IMG/VR virus record: IMGVR_UViG_3300002301_000012
Span: 30,041 to 94,040 of that record
DNA from: a virus
Reading direction: 5' to 3' (one strand)
Length of the DNA: 64,000 bases
Shown here: piece by piece, positions 781-64,000 of the stretch
Layout: every line of letters starts with the position of its first letter
Numbering within the stretch: position 1 is the first letter of the stretch
Position numbers and translations under genes: made by a program
Notes under the pieces: model-generated
The model's input: the letters and a program-made list of their open reading frames with translations, nothing else
What the model was told of the DNA's origin: nothing
Databases searched by the model: none

Positions 781-809
781 AGAATAGAGGATCACAATGT
801 CGAATGCAA
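781..809 (-). promoter_or_regulatory. sigma70-like promoter TTGCAT-N17-TATTCT
   Basis: Read directly on the minus strand. Shares the ttttccNcttgcattcg context with the promoter at 2502-2529. Confidence 0.6.
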
Positions 810-2501: not shown

Positions 2502-2529
2502 AGTATACGCCAGTTTTCGGCGAATGCAA
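2502..2529 (-). promoter_or_regulatory. sigma70-like promoter TTGCAT-N16-TATACT
   Basis: Read directly on the minus strand in an intergenic gap. Confidence 0.6.
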
Positions 2530-11295: not shown

Positions 11296-11324
11296 AGTAT
11301 ACACGGTGCAAATGCACTTTGCAA
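11296..11324 (-). promoter_or_regulatory. sigma70-like promoter TTGCAA-N17-TATACT
   Basis: Read directly. The spacer contains the palindrome gtgcaaatgcac, a possible operator. Confidence 0.65.
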
Positions 11325-42217: not shown

Positions 42218-45200
42218 GTGAGTCTGTTCAAAACACCAAACGATCCGAACGCTCAGAACGCGGATACTGCGGCGTACTCAAACTACACGACGCAGACGAG
42301 CGTAATCGGCGGTGCGCTGCCAATTGTGATCGGTAAGGCGCGGCTGGCTGGTAACGTAATCTGGATCGGAGACTGGACGTCATCTGTTCCCGGCGGCAAT
42401 TCCAAACTCAGCGGCAAAGGCAGCGGCGGTGGTAAAGGCGGCCAAACTTACAACTATACTGCCAGCTTTGGCATCGTGCTTTGCCAAGGTGGGCCTGCGC
42501 CGGCCATCCTTGGCTCTGTGTGGAAGGACAGGTCGACGTACGTTCCTGAAGGCGTGCAGTCGCCAACACCTGGCTATTTTTCGACCGGACTGATCGGCCA
42601 ATCGCCGTGGCCTTACCTGACATCGAGCAAACCAGCGAATCAGGCGCTCGGATACTCCGAGATGGTTGTGGCCTGGTACGAGAATGCAAACCTCGGCAGC
42701 GGCGGCGCAATCTCAAATTACAGCTACGAGATCACTGGTCAGGCTGCGAACGTTGGCAATGTAAATATTGCTTCAGACGGCGTAAGCGTCACATGGGGAG
42801 GCGACGGTGCGCAGTTCAATCCATTGATCGCGCTGACCGGAACCATAGTGATCAGCGGGCTGACGTACAACTGCACCTGGCACAGTCCGACATCCTTAAC
42901 GCTGTCTACCAGCTACGGTGGTTCTGCGACTGGATTGTCATACAGTGCATTGCTGGGACCGGATGCGCTGGTGTCTGACGCCATCACGTTCATGTTGACA
43001 AACTTCAATTGTGCCAACATGAATCCGGCATATCTGGGAAGCATGGCGGGTGCAGGCGGTCTGGCGAACTATTGCATCGCCAATGGCCTTGGAATTTCGC
43101 CGATAGTCAACAATCAGGACACCTATTCGAGCAGGCTTACAGAGTGGCTACTGGTCTGCAATTCCGAAGCGTTTTCCTCTGAAGGTCTGATCAAGTTTGC
43201 CACTTACGGCGATACTGCAATCACTGGCAACGGCGTTACTTTTACGCCCAATCTGACGCCTGTTTACACGCTCGGACTCGATGACTTCGTTGTCGGTAAG
43301 AACACCAATTCGCCACCTGTTCAGTTCTCGCGAGTGGCTGCGCAGGACATCAATAACCGCATGGTGGTCGAATGGACCAATCGCGGAAACCAGTACAACA
43401 CGGAAACGATGGACGATGAGGATACGTGGTCCATCGACTATCAGGTTGGCCAGCGCAATACAGGGTCAACGATCTCCGTTCACAGTGTGTGTCTTCCCAC
43501 AGTGGCGCAGCAAGTGCTTACGGTGCAACTGAAGCGCAACGTGTACATGACGCGCAAAGCGTCCTTTACTCTTGGCTGGGCTTACTCTATTCTGGAACCG
43601 ATGGATCTGGTGCAGGTGCCGGAGCAGTATCCGTCCACCGATTACGTTGCAGTCCGCATCCTGACCATCGACGAAGACGATAACGGCAATCTGGCGATGA
43701 CGGGGGAAGTGTTGCCATTCCCGATCTTAACGCCATCGCTTTACCAGAAGCAGCAGTCAGGCGGATTCACTGCCGGATTTAATGCTTTACCCGGCTCGAC
43801 CAATGTGCCGGTATTTTTTGAGGCTACTCAGCAAATGCTGAATCAAAATCTCGTAACGCAGCTCACTCTTTTCATTGCACTGTCCGGAGGACCGAACTGG
43901 GGCGGATGCGCCGTTTACGCATCGACGGACGGCGGTGCCAGCTACGACCAGGTAGGAACGCAGAATGTCGGATCGCAGCAAGGCTCGCTGACTGCCAGTC
44001 TGGCGGCCGTCGTTGATACCAACGTGCCAGACACAACGCACACACTGAGTGTCAATCTGCAAGAATCGCTTGGCGATCTCGATACTTACACGCAAGCGGA
44101 AGCAGACAATAACGTCTCTCTGTGTGTGGTCGATCAGGAGTTGATGAGTTGGAAAACCGCAACGTTGACTGGTTCGAACGCTTTCAATTTGACGTACCTG
44201 CGGCGCGGTGTTTTCGGATCTCCATGCACAAGCCACGCGAGCGGTGCGTTCTTCGCTCAACTCAGCGGTGGAGAGGCATTCCAGTTCGATTACCAGCCTG
44301 CCGGTGCTTCTGGCATCGCATCGCAGGGTCCGCGCGTCGGACAGACGATCTACTTCAAGTTTCCCGCTTTCAATTTATCTGGACAGCAGCAGGAGGAGAC
44401 ATCGGCAGTCACTGCATATCCGTACACGCTGACTGCACCCTATGTGCGTCCACCGCTGAGCCTGAAGCCGTACTCGCAGGTTTACAGCTTCGCGCCTTCT
44501 GGATACGGCTATACACTGGCACAACAGAACGGCGGATCTTCTGTTGAAATAGAAGGCACCCCGCCTGTTAATTCATTTTCAAAATCAGTGACTGCACCAT
44601 CGATTGACTTCACAGCAACAGTCTCCGCTAATGCATTCGGCTTGATTCCAGCTGGGACATGGGTAGCTCAAGTTTTTGCTATTGATTCGTCTGGACTTTA
44701 CAGTACAGGTTCTAATTTGACGGAGTTTGTTTCTCCGGGGTTCGGCTATCAGGCGGCTTTTTCGGTTTCGTGGTCTTCATCTGCTGTTGCTTATGAAATC
44801 TTTACAGGAACTTCTTTGAATAATATGTTCGGCATGGGTAAGGTAACGCCCGGTTCTATACCTTCATCTCTTACGCTAACATCCATAGCGAATGGTGGCT
44901 ATGGGCCTCCAGACCAACAGGCCACTAATTTTCATGCGCGTGCGAAGCAGGTAATTCACGGCGGTATCGCAGCAACTACCATAGTCTCATCAACATTTAC
45001 GACTGTCGTGATCAACTGTCCCTCAGCACCAGCTTCAAATGAGTTTGCGAATCGCCAATTGATACTGGTCAGCCGTGCAGGTCTTCCTGCAACGCAAAGC
45101 TTCCCGACGCAGCAAATCAACGGTAACGACACAGGGACGCCATTGTGTACGCTAAACATTACCAGTCCAGGTGGTTCGTTTTACAATCCAGGCGATCTGG

Positions 45201-57592: not shown

Positions 57593-59073
57593 TTCACACG
57601 CGACACAAAGAGCATCCATCCACTGTTAAGCCAGGCGACGTCATCACTATTCAACGGGACGGCTGGCCATGGAGTAAGATCGAGCGCACGCATCCGGAAT
57701 GGCGAATCATAAAAACCGGCGAACTGCACGGCACCCACGTCACATGTCTCCAGTCTTCTCCCGTGCTGAATCCGTGTTCGCACTTTCGCGCATGGGCTAT
57801 CGACTTCGACAAGCTATCCGCGGCCGATCAGTTCTGCGGTGCGCGGCGGTCCGTCTTTGTTGCGGTGGATGCCAAAGAGTTGCGGAAGGCCACTATCCAA
57901 AGACCGGACGTCTCTGATGTCGAGCCGAATCCTTCCCGTGTCGATCCACTAGTCGCCGCTATTCCATTTGCCGCCTCTCTGAATAAGCCATCGCGCAGGG
58001 GAATACTGAAAGGCATCCTCGGCGTATCAGCGCTGATGTTGATGCGACAGAAAGCTCAAGCAGGCACTGTCACGAGCACTATTGGGACTTCCAGCCGGAA
58101 CTATTCGACGATTGCCGCCTGGATCGCGAGCCTTCCGTCAAACGCAGTCACCGCAGGAAACAGTTACATCGGAGCCTGCTATAACGATTCCGAGTTCACA
58201 GGTACCGGAACGATTGCTACTTTCACTGCGATCACGACCGATTCCAGCCACACGATCACACTGACGGCGGCCACGGGTCAAAGTTTTCAAGACAATGCCG
58301 GGGTTCGGACCAACGCGCTGAAATACAACCAGTCAAATGGTGTCGGCGTTCGGAAGACTGACAACTATGCTGCGATTGTGCAGATTAGCGGCATAGTTAA
58401 TTATCTGACTTTAAGCAGGTTACAACTTAGCCGATCTGCCACAGGAGCGGGATCGGTCGTGCTACTCGACAACGTAGGATGCACAAATTTGCTATGCACA
58501 AATTTGCTATGCAATGTGGCAGGCAGCAGTGGTACTCCGTGGACCGTTGGCGTAACCGGTGGGTCGGTTGTCTGCTCCAATGTTCTGATCATCGTCAATA
58601 GCAGCAATGCTCTGACTTCTATATTTAATAATAATGGCGGACCTACTCTGTTTGTAGGGTGCTCTGCTGTCAGGCCATCGGACAAGACCGCCGGCGGAAT
58701 AGCCTTCACGTCTGCGGCCGGAAGCCCGACGCTTCAGTCTTCCTGTTCATTCGGATTCACCACCGCATCTTCAGGCACGTGGGGCGGCAGTTCTCAAAAA
58801 AATGCGACTGACCAAAGCAGCATAGCCGGAACCAGCAGTCAGACAAGCATTACCTACAGTTCGGCTACACCATTCCAGGACGCTGCCAGTACGGCGCTCG
58901 ATCTGAGGGCTATAGCCGCAACGTCTCTGGTCGGTAACGGTTATCTGGACTCCACCAACGCTCCGAATGACATCAGCGGATCTCCTCGACCGTCCAATCC
59001 GACCATCGGAGTATGGGAGGACAATCCGTTTACTCCGTCACCAGTACCACATCATAAGGTGGTCAGTAATTGA
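57580..59073 (+). CDS. Small phage domain fused to a Tat-motif beta-helix protein
   Basis: Internal SRRGILKG...AQA at 57991-58062; IGT..R.YSTI.AW; DI.G.PR...PTIG.WE. Confidence 0.75.
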   Translation: MEILIHTRHKEHPSTVKPGDVITIQRDGWPWSKIERTHPEWRIIKTGELHGTHVTCLQSSPVLNPCSHFRAWAIDFDKLSAADQFCGARRSVFVAVDAKELRKATIQRPDVSDVEPNPSRVDPLVAAIPFAASLNKPSRRGILKGILGVSALMLMRQKAQAGTVTSTIGTSSRNYSTIAAWIASLPSNAVTAGNSYIGACYNDSEFTGTGTIATFTAITTDSSHTITLTAATGQSFQDNAGVRTNALKYNQSNGVGVRKTDNYAAIVQISGIVNYLTLSRLQLSRSATGAGSVVLLDNVGCTNLLCTNLLCNVAGSSGTPWTVGVTGGSVVCSNVLIIVNSSNALTSIFNNNGGPTLFVGCSAVRPSDKTAGGIAFTSAAGSPTLQSSCSFGFTTASSGTWGGSSQKNATDQSSIAGTSSQTSITYSSATPFQDAASTALDLRAIAATSLVGNGYLDSTNAPNDISGSPRPSNPTIGVWEDNPFTPSPVPHHKVVSN

Positions 59074-62000
59074 AAGTAATTAGAATATCTGTTAGCGTTG
59101 TGGCGTTTTTTTTGGCGGTGTCCGCCTGTGCGCAAACTATAGGCTGGACGAAAGAAACCAACCCTGTACCGGGATACACCAATGGGGGATATGAAAACCC
59201 AACCGGAGCATACGATCCGGTGTCGGGGAGGAATGTTCTTCACGTTCTGAAGGTTTTCGGATCAAGCACGAGCTACGTTCATTTGGTAAATGGCTCTCCT
59301 ACCGTAACAAGGGTAAGCGGAGATTTTTTTTCGGCGATCTGGACGTGGCCGGATCAAATCTCTGTTGCCGGGTATGGATTCATGAAGGTCGCCTCTGGCA
59401 CCACACCGACTAGCTGCACTTCTGGAATTCCAATCTCATGCACTGTATTCACGGCTACTACCAATTTTACCGGAACCACCGGGAATTATACATGGACTGC
59501 AGCCTCAACCTCTATCTACAGTGATCTGTTTGGGTTTTATCAGGCTTCTACTAACTCATTCATAGCCGGTCCAGGATGGGGAAGTCTGCATCGTCAATGC
59601 TATACGGATTCATCCATTTACAACCTACCAGACGCCAGACAAGCAGGGAACTGGGCAACAGATACAAAGCGAAACCGTCTGTACCTTGGCGGAGGCGTCA
59701 ACAATGGTTGCCAATGGGATGTCACGACGAATGGCACCAGCACCGTGACGATAAACCTTGCGCAGGGACTGTATTTTATTCCAGGCAGCCTATATGTAGG
59801 CATACAAGTAGCCATTCCTGGAAACGGTTCTACCTACTATACGGTTGCCAGCGTGCCCGACGAGCAGCATATGACAATCAACTGCGGCGGATCGTATCCA
59901 GCATGTCCGAACGGTCCGGTAACAGCCTTTCTGGCTCCCTCCAACATGTATCCGGGGGGGATCAATCAGTTGACGGACATGGGATACCTTTCCCTTAACA
60001 GTGATCCGACCACTGATACATGGACCCAGTTGCCGCAATCCTCTGTGGCCGGATTCTCCGGTCCGTTTTACGTGACATCAATGGCCTATGATACCATCGA
60101 CGATGCCATCGTACTGTTCGGAGAAGTTGGCGGACATACCAGCACTTATGTGATGTGTTCGGCTGACGGTAACGTTGGCGGCACGCTGACATCTGCACAA
60201 TTGGCGGTTGGGTGCGTAACCAGTAACGTGTTCGTTCAGGTTACGACCAATACGCCGCCCCCTGGTTTGTACGATCCGTTTGTCACTTATGACCATGCAT
60301 TCGGCGTGATCTGGCAAACCGGAGGATCTTCTTTGATAACGCAAGCCACAAACCAGACTGATGTCTGGAAATACACGCCATCCACAAAAACATGGGCACA
60401 GATGAACACGACAAACCAGCCCTCTCAGACTAGCCTGGTAGAATTCTTTCCCCCTGTTATTTTTAACTCCTCGTCGGACTGCATCGTAACGCATGTTCCA
60501 GATGTGCCGCAGACGAAGCAATGGTGTCCCGCGATCAGCAACGCATGGGTGACGCTTACGGCATCTGGCTCCAGCATCCCAACTTGCTCAAACCCGGGTG
60601 GAGGAAACTGTGGAACGTCGGGAATTATGACGACATACGATCCGAACACCGGAAATTTTTTGGCTGTACAGCAGACGCTATCGGTTTACCCTAATATGTG
60701 GCAGGGGCAATTACCAGTGCCACCTACAATCACAAGTTCCTCGGCACTGACAACGGCAGTACAGGGATCTGTCTACACATGGACGTTTGTTGGCATAGGA
60801 GAGATGCCGATCACATGGTCTGTGTCTGGTGGCAGCCTACCGGCCGGCCTGACCCTGAACTCCAGCAGTGGGATACTTTCGGGCACTCCCTCAGTGCGTG
60901 GACTGTTTTCTTTCGTCGTGCAGGCGGCAAATGGGATTTCTCCGAATGCCACACAAAATATTACTTTGTTGATAGATCCACCTATCACTGATCTTGGAAT
61001 CGGCCACTCTACTTACAACTGTCTCGATGTAGACGGGGACGGTTACGGCGTTGGTCCCGGATGTCTGGGGCCGGATGCGGACGACAACGACGCCACCGTT
61101 CATTCCTATTCCGATGTGATCACAACGTATGGATCGCTTGCTACATTCTGGCTTCACATGGGATGGGCACTTACGGGAGTGTTGTACGTGGACGGCGGGT
61201 CTGGCAGTTGCGCTTCAGTTTCCACCCCTTTTACTTATTCGGCCACAACAGCCTGTGCTACCATTGACGCGGCCATAACGGCGATGACAGCGGGACAGGC
61301 GGTCGTCATGCGCTCGGTAACGCAGAACCGCACTACTCCAGTACAGCTAAAGGCCGGAACGCTGAGTGGAAGCACGTGCACAGCGTATTCGTACTACCTG
61401 GCTTACCCTGGCGAGCAGCCGGATTTTGAATATAATTCGGACTCCAATGGTGCCGGTTTTTCTTCTGGAACGCAAAGCTGCTTCGTGCTGGACGGCATGA
61501 AATTTTATCAGTCATGTCTTGCCAATAAGACTTGCAGCGGGGGCGGATATGGGATGGCAAATAGCACGACGGTCTATGGCATGACGTACAGCCACAACGA
61601 TGTGGGAGGCTTTACAGACAACATCTTTATCCAGTACAACCAGATGGGCACGCAGATAACTCATGATTACGTACACGATTCTTACGCTGGAGGCGATTTC
61701 GGACACGGTATCTATCTGGGAAGCAACGTAACCACCAGTTCCGGGACGACCATACAGGGGAACATTTTTCTGAACGCTGAACAAGCATGTATCCATGCAA
61801 ACGGGCCGATGACATCTATTCTGATTGACTCTAACATGATCTACGGATGCAACCAGGGTATATTGTTTCAGTCCGGGGTCGCTCACTCGACCGTGCAGAA
61901 CAACACACTGCACACAGTCGCTACGACACCATTCGAGTTGAATACCTACGCAAACTCGTACTCGACCAATCCATGGCAATGCCATGACGAGAACTACAAC

Positions 62001-62645
62001 CTCATCGTGAATAACACGATCTTCATGGACGGGCAAAGCTATAATACTAGCATCGTCACCGACGAGGACTCCGGACACGGCGACATCGAAGTCATAGATG
62101 ACGGCACCTGTCAGGCGCAGGCCGGGTATACTCCCGACCTCGGACACAACACGTACAGTAACAACCTGTTGGTACATTACTGCGGAACGAACTGCGTCGA
62201 TTACATCGGGCCGATTGTGCGGTACGGCGGAACACAAGACGTAACTTACAGGACTTCGGACACCTATTCAAATAACCTTTTGAATAACTACGATGCCGCT
62301 ACGCATATCATCGATCCATTGGATAACGTGGTATTCCAGAACTGTTCGTGGTTCGAGAACACGGCCAACATCCCATTGGCCAGTGGAACGGTTTGCGGCT
62401 CCAGCCCGCTTTTTGTTGCCGCGAATCCGCAATGGAACACGCTTCCGCAGAACTGGAATCTGGCAGTATACTCCACTTCTCCCGCTGTAAACGCAGCGCT
62501 GGCGTCCACCGCGCCGGCTTACGACATCGTGGGCAATATCAGGCAGAGCACGCCGACCATTGGTGCATACGACATGTCCTTAAACCAGTCGTATACGGGA
62601 GCGAGTGGATTCGGGTTCGTGTTCTCTGGCAGCGCGATTCACTGA
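59070..62645 (+). CDS. Signal-peptide multidomain protein: kelch-like propeller, Ig-like, DxDGDG Ca-binding motif, beta-helix
   Basis: ACA|Q; DVWKYTP..KTW; GSLPAGLTLNSSSG.LSGTP; CLDVDGDGYG...D.DDND; SPAVNA...DI.G..R...TIGAY. Confidence 0.85.
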   Translation: MKVIRISVSVVAFFLAVSACAQTIGWTKETNPVPGYTNGGYENPTGAYDPVSGRNVLHVLKVFGSSTSYVHLVNGSPTVTRVSGDFFSAIWTWPDQISVAGYGFMKVASGTTPTSCTSGIPISCTVFTATTNFTGTTGNYTWTAASTSIYSDLFGFYQASTNSFIAGPGWGSLHRQCYTDSSIYNLPDARQAGNWATDTKRNRLYLGGGVNNGCQWDVTTNGTSTVTINLAQGLYFIPGSLYVGIQVAIPGNGSTYYTVASVPDEQHMTINCGGSYPACPNGPVTAFLAPSNMYPGGINQLTDMGYLSLNSDPTTDTWTQLPQSSVAGFSGPFYVTSMAYDTIDDAIVLFGEVGGHTSTYVMCSADGNVGGTLTSAQLAVGCVTSNVFVQVTTNTPPPGLYDPFVTYDHAFGVIWQTGGSSLITQATNQTDVWKYTPSTKTWAQMNTTNQPSQTSLVEFFPPVIFNSSSDCIVTHVPDVPQTKQWCPAISNAWVTLTASGSSIPTCSNPGGGNCGTSGIMTTYDPNTGNFLAVQQTLSVYPNMWQGQLPVPPTITSSSALTTAVQGSVYTWTFVGIGEMPITWSVSGGSLPAGLTLNSSSGILSGTPSVRGLFSFVVQAANGISPNATQNITLLIDPPITDLGIGHSTYNCLDVDGDGYGVGPGCLGPDADDNDATVHSYSDVITTYGSLATFWLHMGWALTGVLYVDGGSGSCASVSTPFTYSATTACATIDAAITAMTAGQAVVMRSVTQNRTTPVQLKAGTLSGSTCTAYSYYLAYPGEQPDFEYNSDSNGAGFSSGTQSCFVLDGMKFYQSCLANKTCSGGGYGMANSTTVYGMTYSHNDVGGFTDNIFIQYNQMGTQITHDYVHDSYAGGDFGHGIYLGSNVTTSSGTTIQGNIFLNAEQACIHANGPMTSILIDSNMIYGCNQGILFQSGVAHSTVQNNTLHTVATTPFELNTYANSYSTNPWQCHDENYNLIVNNTIFMDGQSYNTSIVTDEDSGHGDIEVIDDGTCQAQAGYTPDLGHNTYSNNLLVHYCGTNCVDYIGPIVRYGGTQDVTYRTSDTYSNNLLNNYDAATHIIDPLDNVVFQNCSWFENTANIPLASGTVCGSSPLFVAANPQWNTLPQNWNLAVYSTSPAVNAALASTAPAYDIVGNIRQSTPTIGAYDMSLNQSYTGASGFGFVFSGSAIH

Positions 62646-62648
62646 GGC

Positions 62649-62677
62649 TTGCATATTTTTATTGCCTGATGTAATCT
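62649..62677 (+). promoter_or_regulatory. sigma70-like promoter TTGCAT-N17-TAATCT
   Basis: Read directly. Same -35 as the promoters at 804, 2524 and 63556. Confidence 0.6.
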
Positions 62678-62683
62678 GTAATT

Positions 62684-63042
62684 TCGCGGCTGAATCAGTT
62701 TCCGGTTAGCCATTCCGGTTCGCGTTTCGGCAACTCAGTCGCGGCCAGTTTTTAGCGCGGTGGAGAAGTCCGACCTGCGCCACCAAGATCCCACACACGA
62801 CGAGGGTGCGGGCGATGTAGGACGTAAGTAAAGGCAAGCGAGTACGACGGGCATGGTCAGTAGTCGGGATGGTTGCAAGCGCATTTCCGGCGAACAAAAC
62901 GGAGTGGTATCCGTCTGGAATAGACCTTAATGAACTTGACGGAATCGCCGGCTGAAGTCTGAGATAGCTGCCATCCGCCTATCAGAAGTCCAGTGAACCA
63001 CACTGGCAAACGAAGCGCCCCGGGAAACTGGGGCGCTTTCGT
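62684..63042 (+). ncRNA. Candidate ~350-nt structured non-coding RNA, family not recognised
   Basis: Lies between a promoter and a terminator, has no credible ORF, and contains at least six nested or serial stems. Confidence 0.55.
63010..63042. terminator. Probably bidirectional terminator
   Basis: acgaagcgccccgg-gaaa-ctggggcgctttcgt between convergent units. Confidence 0.75.
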
Positions 63043-63057
63043 CATTTCAGCCGCCTA

Positions 63058-63231
63058 CTACCGCCAGTTGCATCCCCAGCACTCGATCCCCGGATCGCTC
63101 GGATCGCAGAGTGCGCAGTGATTGCCGGTTTTCGGCGTTCCGATCTGTTTCAGCGACGCCTTTCCGTGTGTCGTTCCGGCGCTCATGGTTGCGACCGCAA
63201 GCAGCGCGGCCAACAGAATATTCGTTTTCAT
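63058..63231 (-). CDS. 57-aa secreted Cys-rich peptide
   Basis: Hand translation MKTNILLAALLAVATMSA|GTTHGKASLKQIGTPKTGNHCALCDPSDPGIECWGCNWR; AAGGAG RBS. Confidence 0.65.
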   Translation of the reverse strand: MKTNILLAALLAVATMSAGTTHGKASLKQIGTPKTGNHCALCDPSDPGIECWGCNWR

Positions 63232-63555
63232 TTGTATTTAAGTCTCCTTGGGTTTCCTGACGCCGAACGGGTCAGGTGTTTCGGTTGCGCTCAGTTGACG
63301 CGCACTTGTATAGTCGGCAGAATGGCGGAAGTTCTCCAGTCCGCAGTCGGATATATTTTCACGCAGCGAGTAAACACCCAGCGCAACTCAATTCGTGCGC
63401 CCGAATTACACCCTTGACCTGCGTGAAGTCCAGCGGTCACACTCTGGTCGAATGCACTTAATAAGCCACGAGCCGCGAGTGTGATTGCTCGAAGGAACTT
63501 TCGATGCAACATTTAAAAAAAATGCCGCTGGAAATCTCATCCTAACACAACCCGC

Positions 63556-63584
63556 TTGCATCCGTTGATAAGTTTTGATAAGGT
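63556..63584 (+). promoter_or_regulatory. sigma70-like promoter TTGCAT-N17-TAAGGT
   Basis: Read directly, upstream of the GGGGG RBS and ATG at 63607. Confidence 0.5.
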
Positions 63585-63606
63585 GAAGTCTGAACCGGGG
63601 GACATA

Positions 63607-64000
63607 ATGGAGAAAATCACAACACTGAAGCCAGAATGGAAAGAAGCGATCCCCGAGTGGAACAGGAAATGGATCACATCTGGACTGTCCACCAAACCTG
63701 CTGATTTTGAAGCGTTCGAGCGCGGTGCTAAAGAGTGCTACCGTTACGCTGGTATTTCATGGCCGGGTGTCGTGGTGCGTGTCTCGTCGCCGTTGGTCGG
63801 TGCATTGGCTGCGCCCATAGCAGCCAATGTCATTGCGCTTGCAAGAGCAGGATGCCTGGACCATCGCGCTAAACATAGCGAAGTGCTGCACGTGGACTCG
63901 GCGGTGGGCTCGGCGGTGGACTCGGCGGTGGACTCGGCGGTGGACTCGGCGGTGTACTCGGCGGTGGGCTCGGCGGTGGACTCGGCGGTGTACTCGGCGG
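63607..64000 (+). CDS. DUF6745-like phage protein with (V-x-S-A)n repeats, truncated by the window edge
   Basis: MEKITTLKPE...W...W...GLSTKPAD......CY..AG...P...V.SP, then the repeats. Confidence 0.75.
   Translation, partial: MEKITTLKPEWKEAIPEWNRKWITSGLSTKPADFEAFERGAKECYRYAGISWPGVVVRVSSPLVGALAAPIAANVIALARAGCLDHRAKHSEVLHVDSAVGSAVDSAVDSAVDSAVYSAVGSAVDSAVYSA
63892..64000 (+). repeat. 12-nt coding tandem repeat gtg(gac/ggc/tac)tcggcg
   Basis: Nine units are visible up to the window end. Confidence 0.95.

What the first reader, a model, noticed from the sequence alone, without database searches (positions are those of the whole stretch)
62649..63042. Promoter- and terminator-bounded ~350-nt structured RNA
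Seen: TTGCAT-17-TAATCT followed by serial stems: cgcggctga/tcagtcgcg (62685/62735); the gcgcggtgga-gaag-tccgacctgcgc hairpin (62755-62780); accaagatccc/gggatggt (62782/62866); ccggcga/tcgccgg (62887/62945) enclosing tccgtc/gacgga; ctgagatag/ctatcag; and ccagtg/cactgg, then a strong terminator. There is no credible ORF, in an otherwise gene-dense genome. It lacks a convincing T-arm or tag ORF (tRNA/tmRNA) and the full RNase P consensus. Inference: a phage ncRNA, possibly of an undescribed class.
Basis: partly seen in the sequence, partly recalled or inferred. Interest (0 to 1): 0.72.

Follow-up and report, generated by a model that had tools for sequence, protein, structure and literature searches.

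The report
ORF-free promoter–terminator gap after tail fibre
A 412-base gene-free stretch at the end of a peat-bog phage's tail-fibre genes probably makes a short non-coding RNA, but that RNA folds no better than scrambled sequence and has no detectable relatives, so nothing supports a new structured RNA class.

Summary
The stretch 62646-63057 is non-coding in all six frames.

Two parts of the finding hold up:
- The TTGCAT-17-TAATCT site matches a promoter motif that recurs in this phage. A matrix built from six other sites, each lying just upstream of a start codon, ranks it 6th of about 188,000 positions.
- The 3' hairpin (63009-63042) is very stable.

Three points weaken it:
- The hairpin is symmetric, has no U-run, and sits 15-20 nt past the stop of a convergent 57-aa gene. 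It is a shared bidirectional terminator.
- The "serial stems" are at chance level. Without the terminator, 62684-63005 folds at z = +0.84 against 200 dinucleotide shuffles. Its sliding-window structure content equals that of 24 coding control segments.
- No relative was found: no Rfam hit, no tRNA or tmRNA, and no match in GenBank phages, IMG/VR pattern scans, 150 related loci or about 700 Acidobacteriota genomes. The nearest reachable fibre homologues show no similar sequence after the gene.

Verdict: a plausible gene-less transcription unit of about 360 nt, with generic small-RNA anatomy and unknown function. The claim of a structured RNA of an undescribed class is not supported. Interest is low.

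The parts
59070..62645 (+). Last tail-fibre-like gene (1191 aa, He_PIG Ig domain). Its stop codon is 3 nt before the promoter.
   Evidence: codon score 0.25 per codon
62649..62677 (+). Promoter-like site, TTGCAT-17-TAATCT. The transcription start is inferred at about 62683-62686.
   Evidence: The motif TTGCAW-N16-17-TAnnCT occurs 4 times in the window against 0.40 expected. A leave-one-out matrix ranks the site 6th genome-wide. It matches only 6 of 12 positions of the E. coli sigma-70 consensus and was not called by the scan.
62685..62743 (+). 5' stem-loop at the predicted transcript start (-23 kcal/mol).
   Evidence: z -2.73; first window z -3.5, within the range of the coding controls
62744..63008 (+). 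Body of the putative RNA: short stems at chance level, no ORF, GC 52-60%.
63009..63042 (.). GC-rich hairpin acting as a shared bidirectional terminator for the + transcript or late operon and for the - strand 57-aa gene.
   Evidence: z -6.65 on +, -4.95 on -; no U-run; 15-20 nt downstream of the stop codon at 63058-60
63058..63231 (-). Convergent 57-aa gene: signal peptide, then a mature peptide with four Cys; AAGGAG ribosome-binding site.
   Evidence: (codon score 0.208)
63556..63584 (+). Second promoter of the same type (TTGCAT-17-TAAGGT), in front of the DUF6745 gene that starts at 63607.

Best explanation
The stretch 62646-63057 is the non-coding junction between the end of the phage's roughly 55-kb rightward structural-gene block and a small leftward gene for a secreted peptide.

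A host-type promoter of the phage's own recurrent kind sits 3 nt after the fibre stop codon. It most likely starts a transcript at about 62684. That transcript, and any read-through from the fibre gene, ends at the GC hairpin 63009-63042. The same hairpin, read on the other strand, ends the 57-aa gene.

The product would be a gene-less RNA of about 360 nt with a hairpin at each end, which is the usual anatomy of a stable bacterial small RNA. Its middle is no more folded than random sequence.

If the RNA has a function, that function is more likely linear base-pairing, or local insulation of the two convergent transcription units, than a conserved three-dimensional fold.

Shown: the ORF-free status, the promoter-motif match, the hairpin stabilities, and the absence of excess structure and of homologues. 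Inferred: that the promoter fires, where the RNA ends, and any function.
For: - No coding signal in any of six frames, while both neighbouring genes score like real genes.
- No protein relatives for the longest stop-free stretches.
- The promoter motif recurs: 4 matches against 0.40 expected, and 0 of 100 shuffles reach 4.
- A matrix built from 6 other sites, each 10-60 nt upstream of a start codon, ranks this site 6th of about 188,000 positions.
- The terminator hairpin has z -6.65 on + and -4.95 on -.
- The predicted start coincides with the base of the 5' hairpin.
- The genome is dense, and this is one of the two longest stretches I found without a credible gene (412 nt, next to a 324-nt one), though both simple gene-callers used were unreliable.
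- Phage transcriptomes commonly show such short non-coding and UTR-derived RNAs (PMC10914365).
Against: - There is no transcript evidence.
- The promoter motif was defined after the fact, by a pattern that also selected this site. It matches only 6 of 12 positions of the E. coli consensus.
- No conservation could be shown. The nearest reachable fibre homologues (52-56% aa) have no similar sequence after the gene.
- There is no excess structure.
- Complementarity to neighbouring mRNAs or to the rest of the phage genome is no greater than chance.
- GC content is coding-like (52-60%) rather than that of the clearly regulatory region at 63450-63600 (42-47%). This also fits a decayed gene.
Confidence: 0.45

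Rival explanations
1. Relic cassette. A small accessory ('moron') gene once lay between this promoter and terminator and has decayed. The DNA is now neutral filler that is still transcribed.
For: - Every other promoter of this type sits 10-60 nt before a start codon; this one has none.
- GC content is coding-like, not AT-rich.
- There is a weak residual + strand codon signal at 62800-63025, at most 6.9 per 50 codons against 11-17 in real genes.
- No similar sequence follows the fibre gene in the nearest reachable homologues.
Against: - The residual signal is not significant.
- No protein homologue was found for the + frame 44-aa fragment or for the - frame 90-aa stretch.
- Dense phage genomes usually delete useless DNA quickly.
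- The promoter and terminator are both still intact.
Confidence: 0.25
2. Plain 3' untranslated tail or spacer. The promoter match is fortuitous, and the stretch only separates the fibre gene from the terminator it shares with the convergent gene.
For: - There is no terminator between the fibre stop codon and 63009.
- The hairpin is placed correctly for the 57-aa gene.
- There is no structure signal and no homologues.
Against: - Only two sites outside the training set reach the matrix score of this site in the whole genome. The chance of one falling in an 824-position stretch is well under 1%.
- A 370-nt 3' UTR is long; in Pseudomonas phages most 3' UTRs do not exceed 100 nt (PMC10914365).
Confidence: 0.17
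3. One reading: a structured RNA of an undescribed class that works through a defined fold.
For: - It is bounded by a promoter and a terminator and has no ORF.
- Two local hairpins, cut at hand-picked boundaries, have z of about -2.6 to -2.7.
Against: - Body z is +0.84, and local structure equals that of the coding controls.
- There are 0 Rfam matches at gathering threshold and only chance-level ones below it.
- No homologues were found anywhere that was searched.
Confidence: 0.07
4. An mRNA for a very small protein, for example the 28-aa ORF at 62869-62955 or the 25-aa ORF that starts at the ATG near 62853.
For: A slightly positive codon score in the frame of the 28-aa ORF.
Against: Neither ATG has a Shine-Dalgarno sequence at proper spacing. 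Both ORFs are under 30 aa. No homologues were found.
Confidence: 0.04

Closest known systems
Phage-encoded small non-coding, UTR-derived and antisense transcripts mapped by transcriptomics (for example ONT-cappable-seq of Pseudomonas phages, PMC10914365)
   Same: A short unit in an intergenic position with no ORF, its own promoter and a terminator hairpin. Function is mostly unknown in those cases as well.
   Different: Those RNAs have mapped 5' and 3' ends and are mostly 100-200 nt. Here there is no RNA evidence, and the predicted length is about 360 nt.
Moron cassettes and the PeSL promoter/stem-loop cassettes of T4-type phages (PMC2839356)
   Same: A sigma-70-like promoter plus a stem-loop terminator flanking accessory DNA at a module boundary. 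The promoter motif recurs across the genome.
   Different: There is no gene inside the cassette, and no repeated stem-loop sequence elsewhere in the genome.
Type I toxin-antitoxin pairs with convergent 3' overlap (txpA/RatA and bsrG/SR4 of Bacillus prophages; from my own knowledge, not checked in a paper here)
   Same: A small protein of about 57 aa with a hydrophobic N-terminus lies convergent to a gene-less RNA, on phage DNA.
   Different: The overlap is limited to the shared terminator (about 35-45 nt) and does not reach the coding region. The peptide looks like a cleaved signal peptide plus a Cys-rich secreted part, not a membrane toxin. No excess complementarity was found.

Membership tests
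Any Rfam 15 family (including tmRNA, RNase P, 6S, GOLLD, ROOL, riboswitches, group I/II introns) | Covariance-model score at or above the family's gathering threshold | tested here: not met
   0 matches in the whole window. In E-value mode the only matches are sX12 at 23 of 106 bits, which is the terminator hairpin, plus SNORD102 and ncS54, all far below threshold.
tRNA / tmRNA | Cloverleaf or tRNA-like domain with a tag ORF, detectable by ARAGORN | tested here: not met
   0 genes in the window.
Structured non-coding RNA (generic) | Folding energy below that of dinucleotide shuffles | tested here: not met
   Body z is +0.84. The sliding-window profile equals that of the coding controls.
Structured non-coding RNA (generic) | Compensatory base changes in homologues | not testable with these tools
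Rho-independent terminator | GC-rich hairpin | tested here: met
   -25.9 kcal/mol with z -6.65 on +; -22.6 kcal/mol with z -4.95 on -.
Rho-independent terminator | U-run of at least 5 of 8 directly after the stem | tested here: not met
   Not called by the scan. The tails are UUUCGUCAUUUC on + and UUCGUUUGCC on -.
Sigma-70-type promoter | Match to TTGACA-17-TATAAT | tested here: inconclusive
   6 of 12 positions match, and the scan did not call it. It does fit the phage's recurrent TTGCAW-N16-17-TAnnCTG motif, found upstream of 6 other genes.
DGR template region or retron msr/msd RNA | An adjacent reverse transcriptase, and a template/variable repeat pair for DGR | tested here: not met
   No RVT_1 match in the genome. 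No repeat links the gap to the fibre gene's 3' end.
attP site | An integrase in the genome and identity to a host attB | tested here: not met
   No tyrosine or serine recombinase. In about 700 Acidobacteriota genomes there were only chance hits of 23-31 nt; every one whose context I checked lies inside an unrelated ORF.
Type I toxin-antitoxin (3'-overlap type) | Antisense RNA overlapping the toxin mRNA beyond the terminator, or complementary to it | tested here: not met
   The overlap is confined to the hairpin 63009-63042. Duplex energies against the peptide mRNA have z -1.6 and +1.3.

The most novel reading that the evidence does not exclude
The gene-less RNA of about 360 nt and the convergent 57-aa exported Cys-rich peptide form one two-part module. 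The RNA would control the peptide gene, as an antitoxin-like or antisense regulator acting through the shared terminator or through read-through. That would be an unrecognised RNA-peptide pair in phages of Acidobacteriota-type bog bacteria.
Probability: 0.06. Interest if true: 0.55.

Novelty: new member of a known kind. Interest (0 to 1): 0.17.

Why it matters
If transcribed, this would be one more orphan phage small RNA, from an uncultivated phage lineage of peat and bog environments whose host is probably Acidobacteriota. RNA biology in that lineage is unexplored. As it stands the stretch offers no fold, no family and no target, so it opens no question that can be tested without the host or metatranscriptomes. 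The main value of this check is negative: stems picked out by eye in DNA of 54% GC are what chance gives. The reusable by-product is the phage's recurrent promoter motif, TTGCAW-N16-17-TAnnCTG.

Tried and rejected
**Known RNA families:** Rfam at gathering and E-value thresholds and ARAGORN gave nothing.

**Direct homologue searches:**
- GenBank phages by blastn: no match.
- nhmmer, blastn and tblastx of the gap against 83, then 149, fetched loci: nothing.
- 301 Bryobacterales and 401 Acidobacteriota genomes: only hits of 23-31 nt; every one whose context I checked lies inside an unrelated ORF.
- Two hairpin patterns in IMG/VR: 0 matches.
- Earlier notes of this scan: no look-alike stretch.

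**Searches through neighbouring genes:**
- The fibre protein, terminase, the 57-aa peptide, the downstream gene and P0002 against viral contigs: no close relatives.
- The fibre alignment A1 reached only distant loci in viral contigs, metagenomes and genomes, none syntenic.
The 33 or more contigs with the identical fibre protein, and the contigs of the 63%-identical relatives P0002-P0004, could not be fetched.

**Alternative identities rejected:**
- DGR, retron or attP: no reverse transcriptase or integrase, and no repeats or iterons.
- Replication origin: no skew switch and no AT-rich or iteron features.
- Hidden or decayed gene: the HMMER search of the 90-aa minus-frame stretch hit only junk tandem-repeat translations. 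The + frame 44-aa fragment found nothing.
- Paralogue in the genome: none.
- Base-pairing to neighbouring mRNAs: not above shuffles.

**Method note:** my two simple gene-callers were unreliable for a genome-wide list of gaps.

Full report
**Context.** The window is the last 64 kb of a 94,040-bp IMG/VR phage record. Both contig ends lie in the same 12-nt tandem repeat. The genome is therefore circular or terminally redundant, and the assembly broke inside a repeat-bearing gene. The finding lies between two genes:
- the last of a long rightward block of tail-fibre-like genes, 59070-62645, 1191 aa, with a He_PIG Ig domain;
- a leftward 57-aa gene, 63058-63231, with an AAGGAG ribosome-binding site, a signal peptide and four cysteines.

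To the right lies a second non-coding stretch, 63232-63606. After it comes a DUF6745 gene that runs across the contig junction, and a lysozyme gene follows about 4 kb further on. The closest fibre homologues in genomes are in Bryobacterales and other Acidobacteriota MAGs from bogs, which hints at the host.

The stretch 62646-63057 (412 nt) is non-coding. I trained a codon log-odds model on 24 long genes of this phage.
- The fibre gene scores 0.25 per codon and the 57-aa gene 0.21.
- Every ORF inside the gap scores 0 or below.
- A scan that ignores stop codons shows no frame with gene-like signal. The maximum is 6.9 per 50 codons, against 11-17 in the fibre gene.
- A full HMMER search of the longest stop-free stretch (90 aa, minus strand) hit only junk tandem-repeat translations.
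- The best + frame fragment found nothing.

**Promoter.** TTGCAT-17-TAATCT matches the E. coli consensus at only 6 of 12 positions, and the generic scan did not call it. The same design recurs in this phage, however. TTGCAW-N16-17-TAnnCT occurs 4 times in the window against 0.40 expected, and none of 100 shuffles reached 4. I built a position matrix from six other sites, each 10-60 nt upstream of a start codon:
- window 809(-), 2529(-), 11324(-) and 63556(+);
- a divergent pair at genome 21791/21796.

This matrix ranks the 62649 site 6th of about 188,000 positions. The motif was defined after the fact, by a pattern that also picked out this site, so the statistic is generous. I still regard the promoter as credible. 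It is the only site of its kind with no start codon behind it.

**Terminator.** The hairpin 63009-63042 is very stable (-25.9 kcal/mol, z -6.65). It is almost equally stable on the other strand (-22.6 kcal/mol, z -4.95). It has no U-run on either side and begins 15-20 nt after the stop codon of the convergent 57-aa gene. It is best read as one bidirectional terminator shared by both transcription units, not as the private 3' end of an RNA gene.

**Structure.**
- The full-length + strand fold gives z -2.16 or -1.94.
- When the terminator is removed, 62684-63005 gives z +0.84 on the + strand and +0.81 on the - strand, with 200 dinucleotide shuffles.
- In 60-nt sliding windows the region has mean z -0.29 and two windows below -2.
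- Twenty-four control segments of the same length, taken from the phage's coding DNA, give mean -0.16 ± 0.29 and 1.67 such windows. Their minimum z ranges down to -4.94.
- Segments cut at boundaries chosen around the stems look better, with z -2.1 to -2.7. That is selection bias.
- Only the 5' hairpin 62685-62743 is mildly notable, and it starts exactly at the predicted transcription start.

**Relatives.**
- Rfam gave nothing at gathering threshold in the window or in related loci. In E-value mode it gave only chance-level matches, the best being the terminator hairpin against sX12 at 23 of 106 bits. ARAGORN found nothing.
- There was no blastn match in GenBank phages and no paralogue in the genome.
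- The fibre protein has an identical or at least 90%-identical copy on dozens of ENA, Logan and JGI contigs, and relatives at 50-63% identity.
- A fibre alignment recovered 149 loci from viral, metagenome and genome collections. None contains anything similar to the gap by nhmmer, blastn or tblastx.
- In the nearest reachable loci (L005, L006 and L007, 52-56% aa identity), unrelated sequence follows the fibre gene directly, or a convergent gene does.
- About 700 Acidobacteriota genomes gave only matches of 23-31 nt. Every one whose context I checked lies inside an unrelated ORF.
- Two hairpin patterns found nothing in IMG/VR.

Covariation could therefore not be tested at all.

**Other identities considered.**
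- The genome has no integrase, serine recombinase or reverse transcriptase. No repeat links the gap to the fibre gene, and there are no iterons. This rules out attP, a DGR template, a retron RNA and an obvious replication origin.
- The putative RNA is no more complementary to the 57-aa gene's mRNA, to the next gene's start region, or to the rest of the phage genome than chance allows.

**Reading.** What is shown is a gene-free stretch of 412 nt, one of the two longest stretches without a credible gene that I found in a dense genome. It has a credible promoter at its left edge and a shared bidirectional terminator at its right edge.

The most likely product is an RNA of about 360 nt with a hairpin at each end and a middle no more folded than random sequence. 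Read-through from the fibre gene would also cover the stretch as a long 3' tail.

I put about 45% on a real gene-less transcription unit of this kind. Any function would be local, either insulation of the convergent units or linear base-pairing. The rivals are:
- about 25% on a decayed accessory-gene cassette, supported by the coding-like GC content and the orphan promoter;
- about 17% on a plain spacer with a fortuitous promoter match;
- well under 10% each on a new structured RNA class or a micro-protein mRNA.

Short non-coding and UTR-derived transcripts are a known and common feature of phage transcriptomes (PMC10914365). Promoter/stem-loop cassettes at module borders are also known (PMC2839356). 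Even the favourable reading is thus a new, orphan example of a known kind.

Noticed in passing
window 63892-64000 and genome 1 to about 150 (L164): Both contig ends lie in the same 12-nt tandem repeat, GACTCGGCGGTG, which encodes a D/G/Y-S-A-V repeat. The genome is circular or terminally redundant and the assembly broke in the repeat. The repeat sits inside a DUF6745 gene that starts at ATG 63607 and continues for 299 aa at genome 2-901.
   Followed up: partly
window 781-809(-), 2502-2529(-), 11296-11324(-), 62649-62677(+), 63556-63584(+); genome 21791(+)/21796(-); window 41885(+): A recurrent promoter-like motif, TTGCAW-N16-17-TAnnCT(G), lies 10-60 nt upstream of start codons. It includes a divergent pair that looks leaderless. 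One extra copy lies inside coding DNA just upstream of the 1338-aa gene at 42218.
   Followed up: partly
window 63058-63231 (-): A 57-aa gene with a strong ribosome-binding site, a signal peptide and a C-terminal part with four Cys. Its codon usage is gene-like. No relatives were found in IMG/VR by pattern scan.
   Followed up: partly
L005:2216-2576 and L006:3109-3529: Two metagenome contigs with 55%-identical fibre homologues are identical for about 290 nt past the fibre stop codon and then diverge completely, which looks like a recombination breakpoint. That stretch holds only an 18-codon ORF behind a strong ribosome-binding site.
   Followed up: no
genome 6885-9431 (-), L164: An 848-aa ORF has weak matches to the DDE transposase domains of IS1 and IS240, below the Pfam cut-offs for all but one. 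It may be a transposase-derived phage protein.
   Followed up: no
window 63232-63555: A second stretch of 324 nt with no credible gene lies between the 57-aa gene and the DUF6745 gene. Its GC content drops to 42-45% near 63450-63600, and it holds an inverted repeat at 63429-63444 / 63477-63492. It is probably the divergent regulatory region.
   Followed up: no
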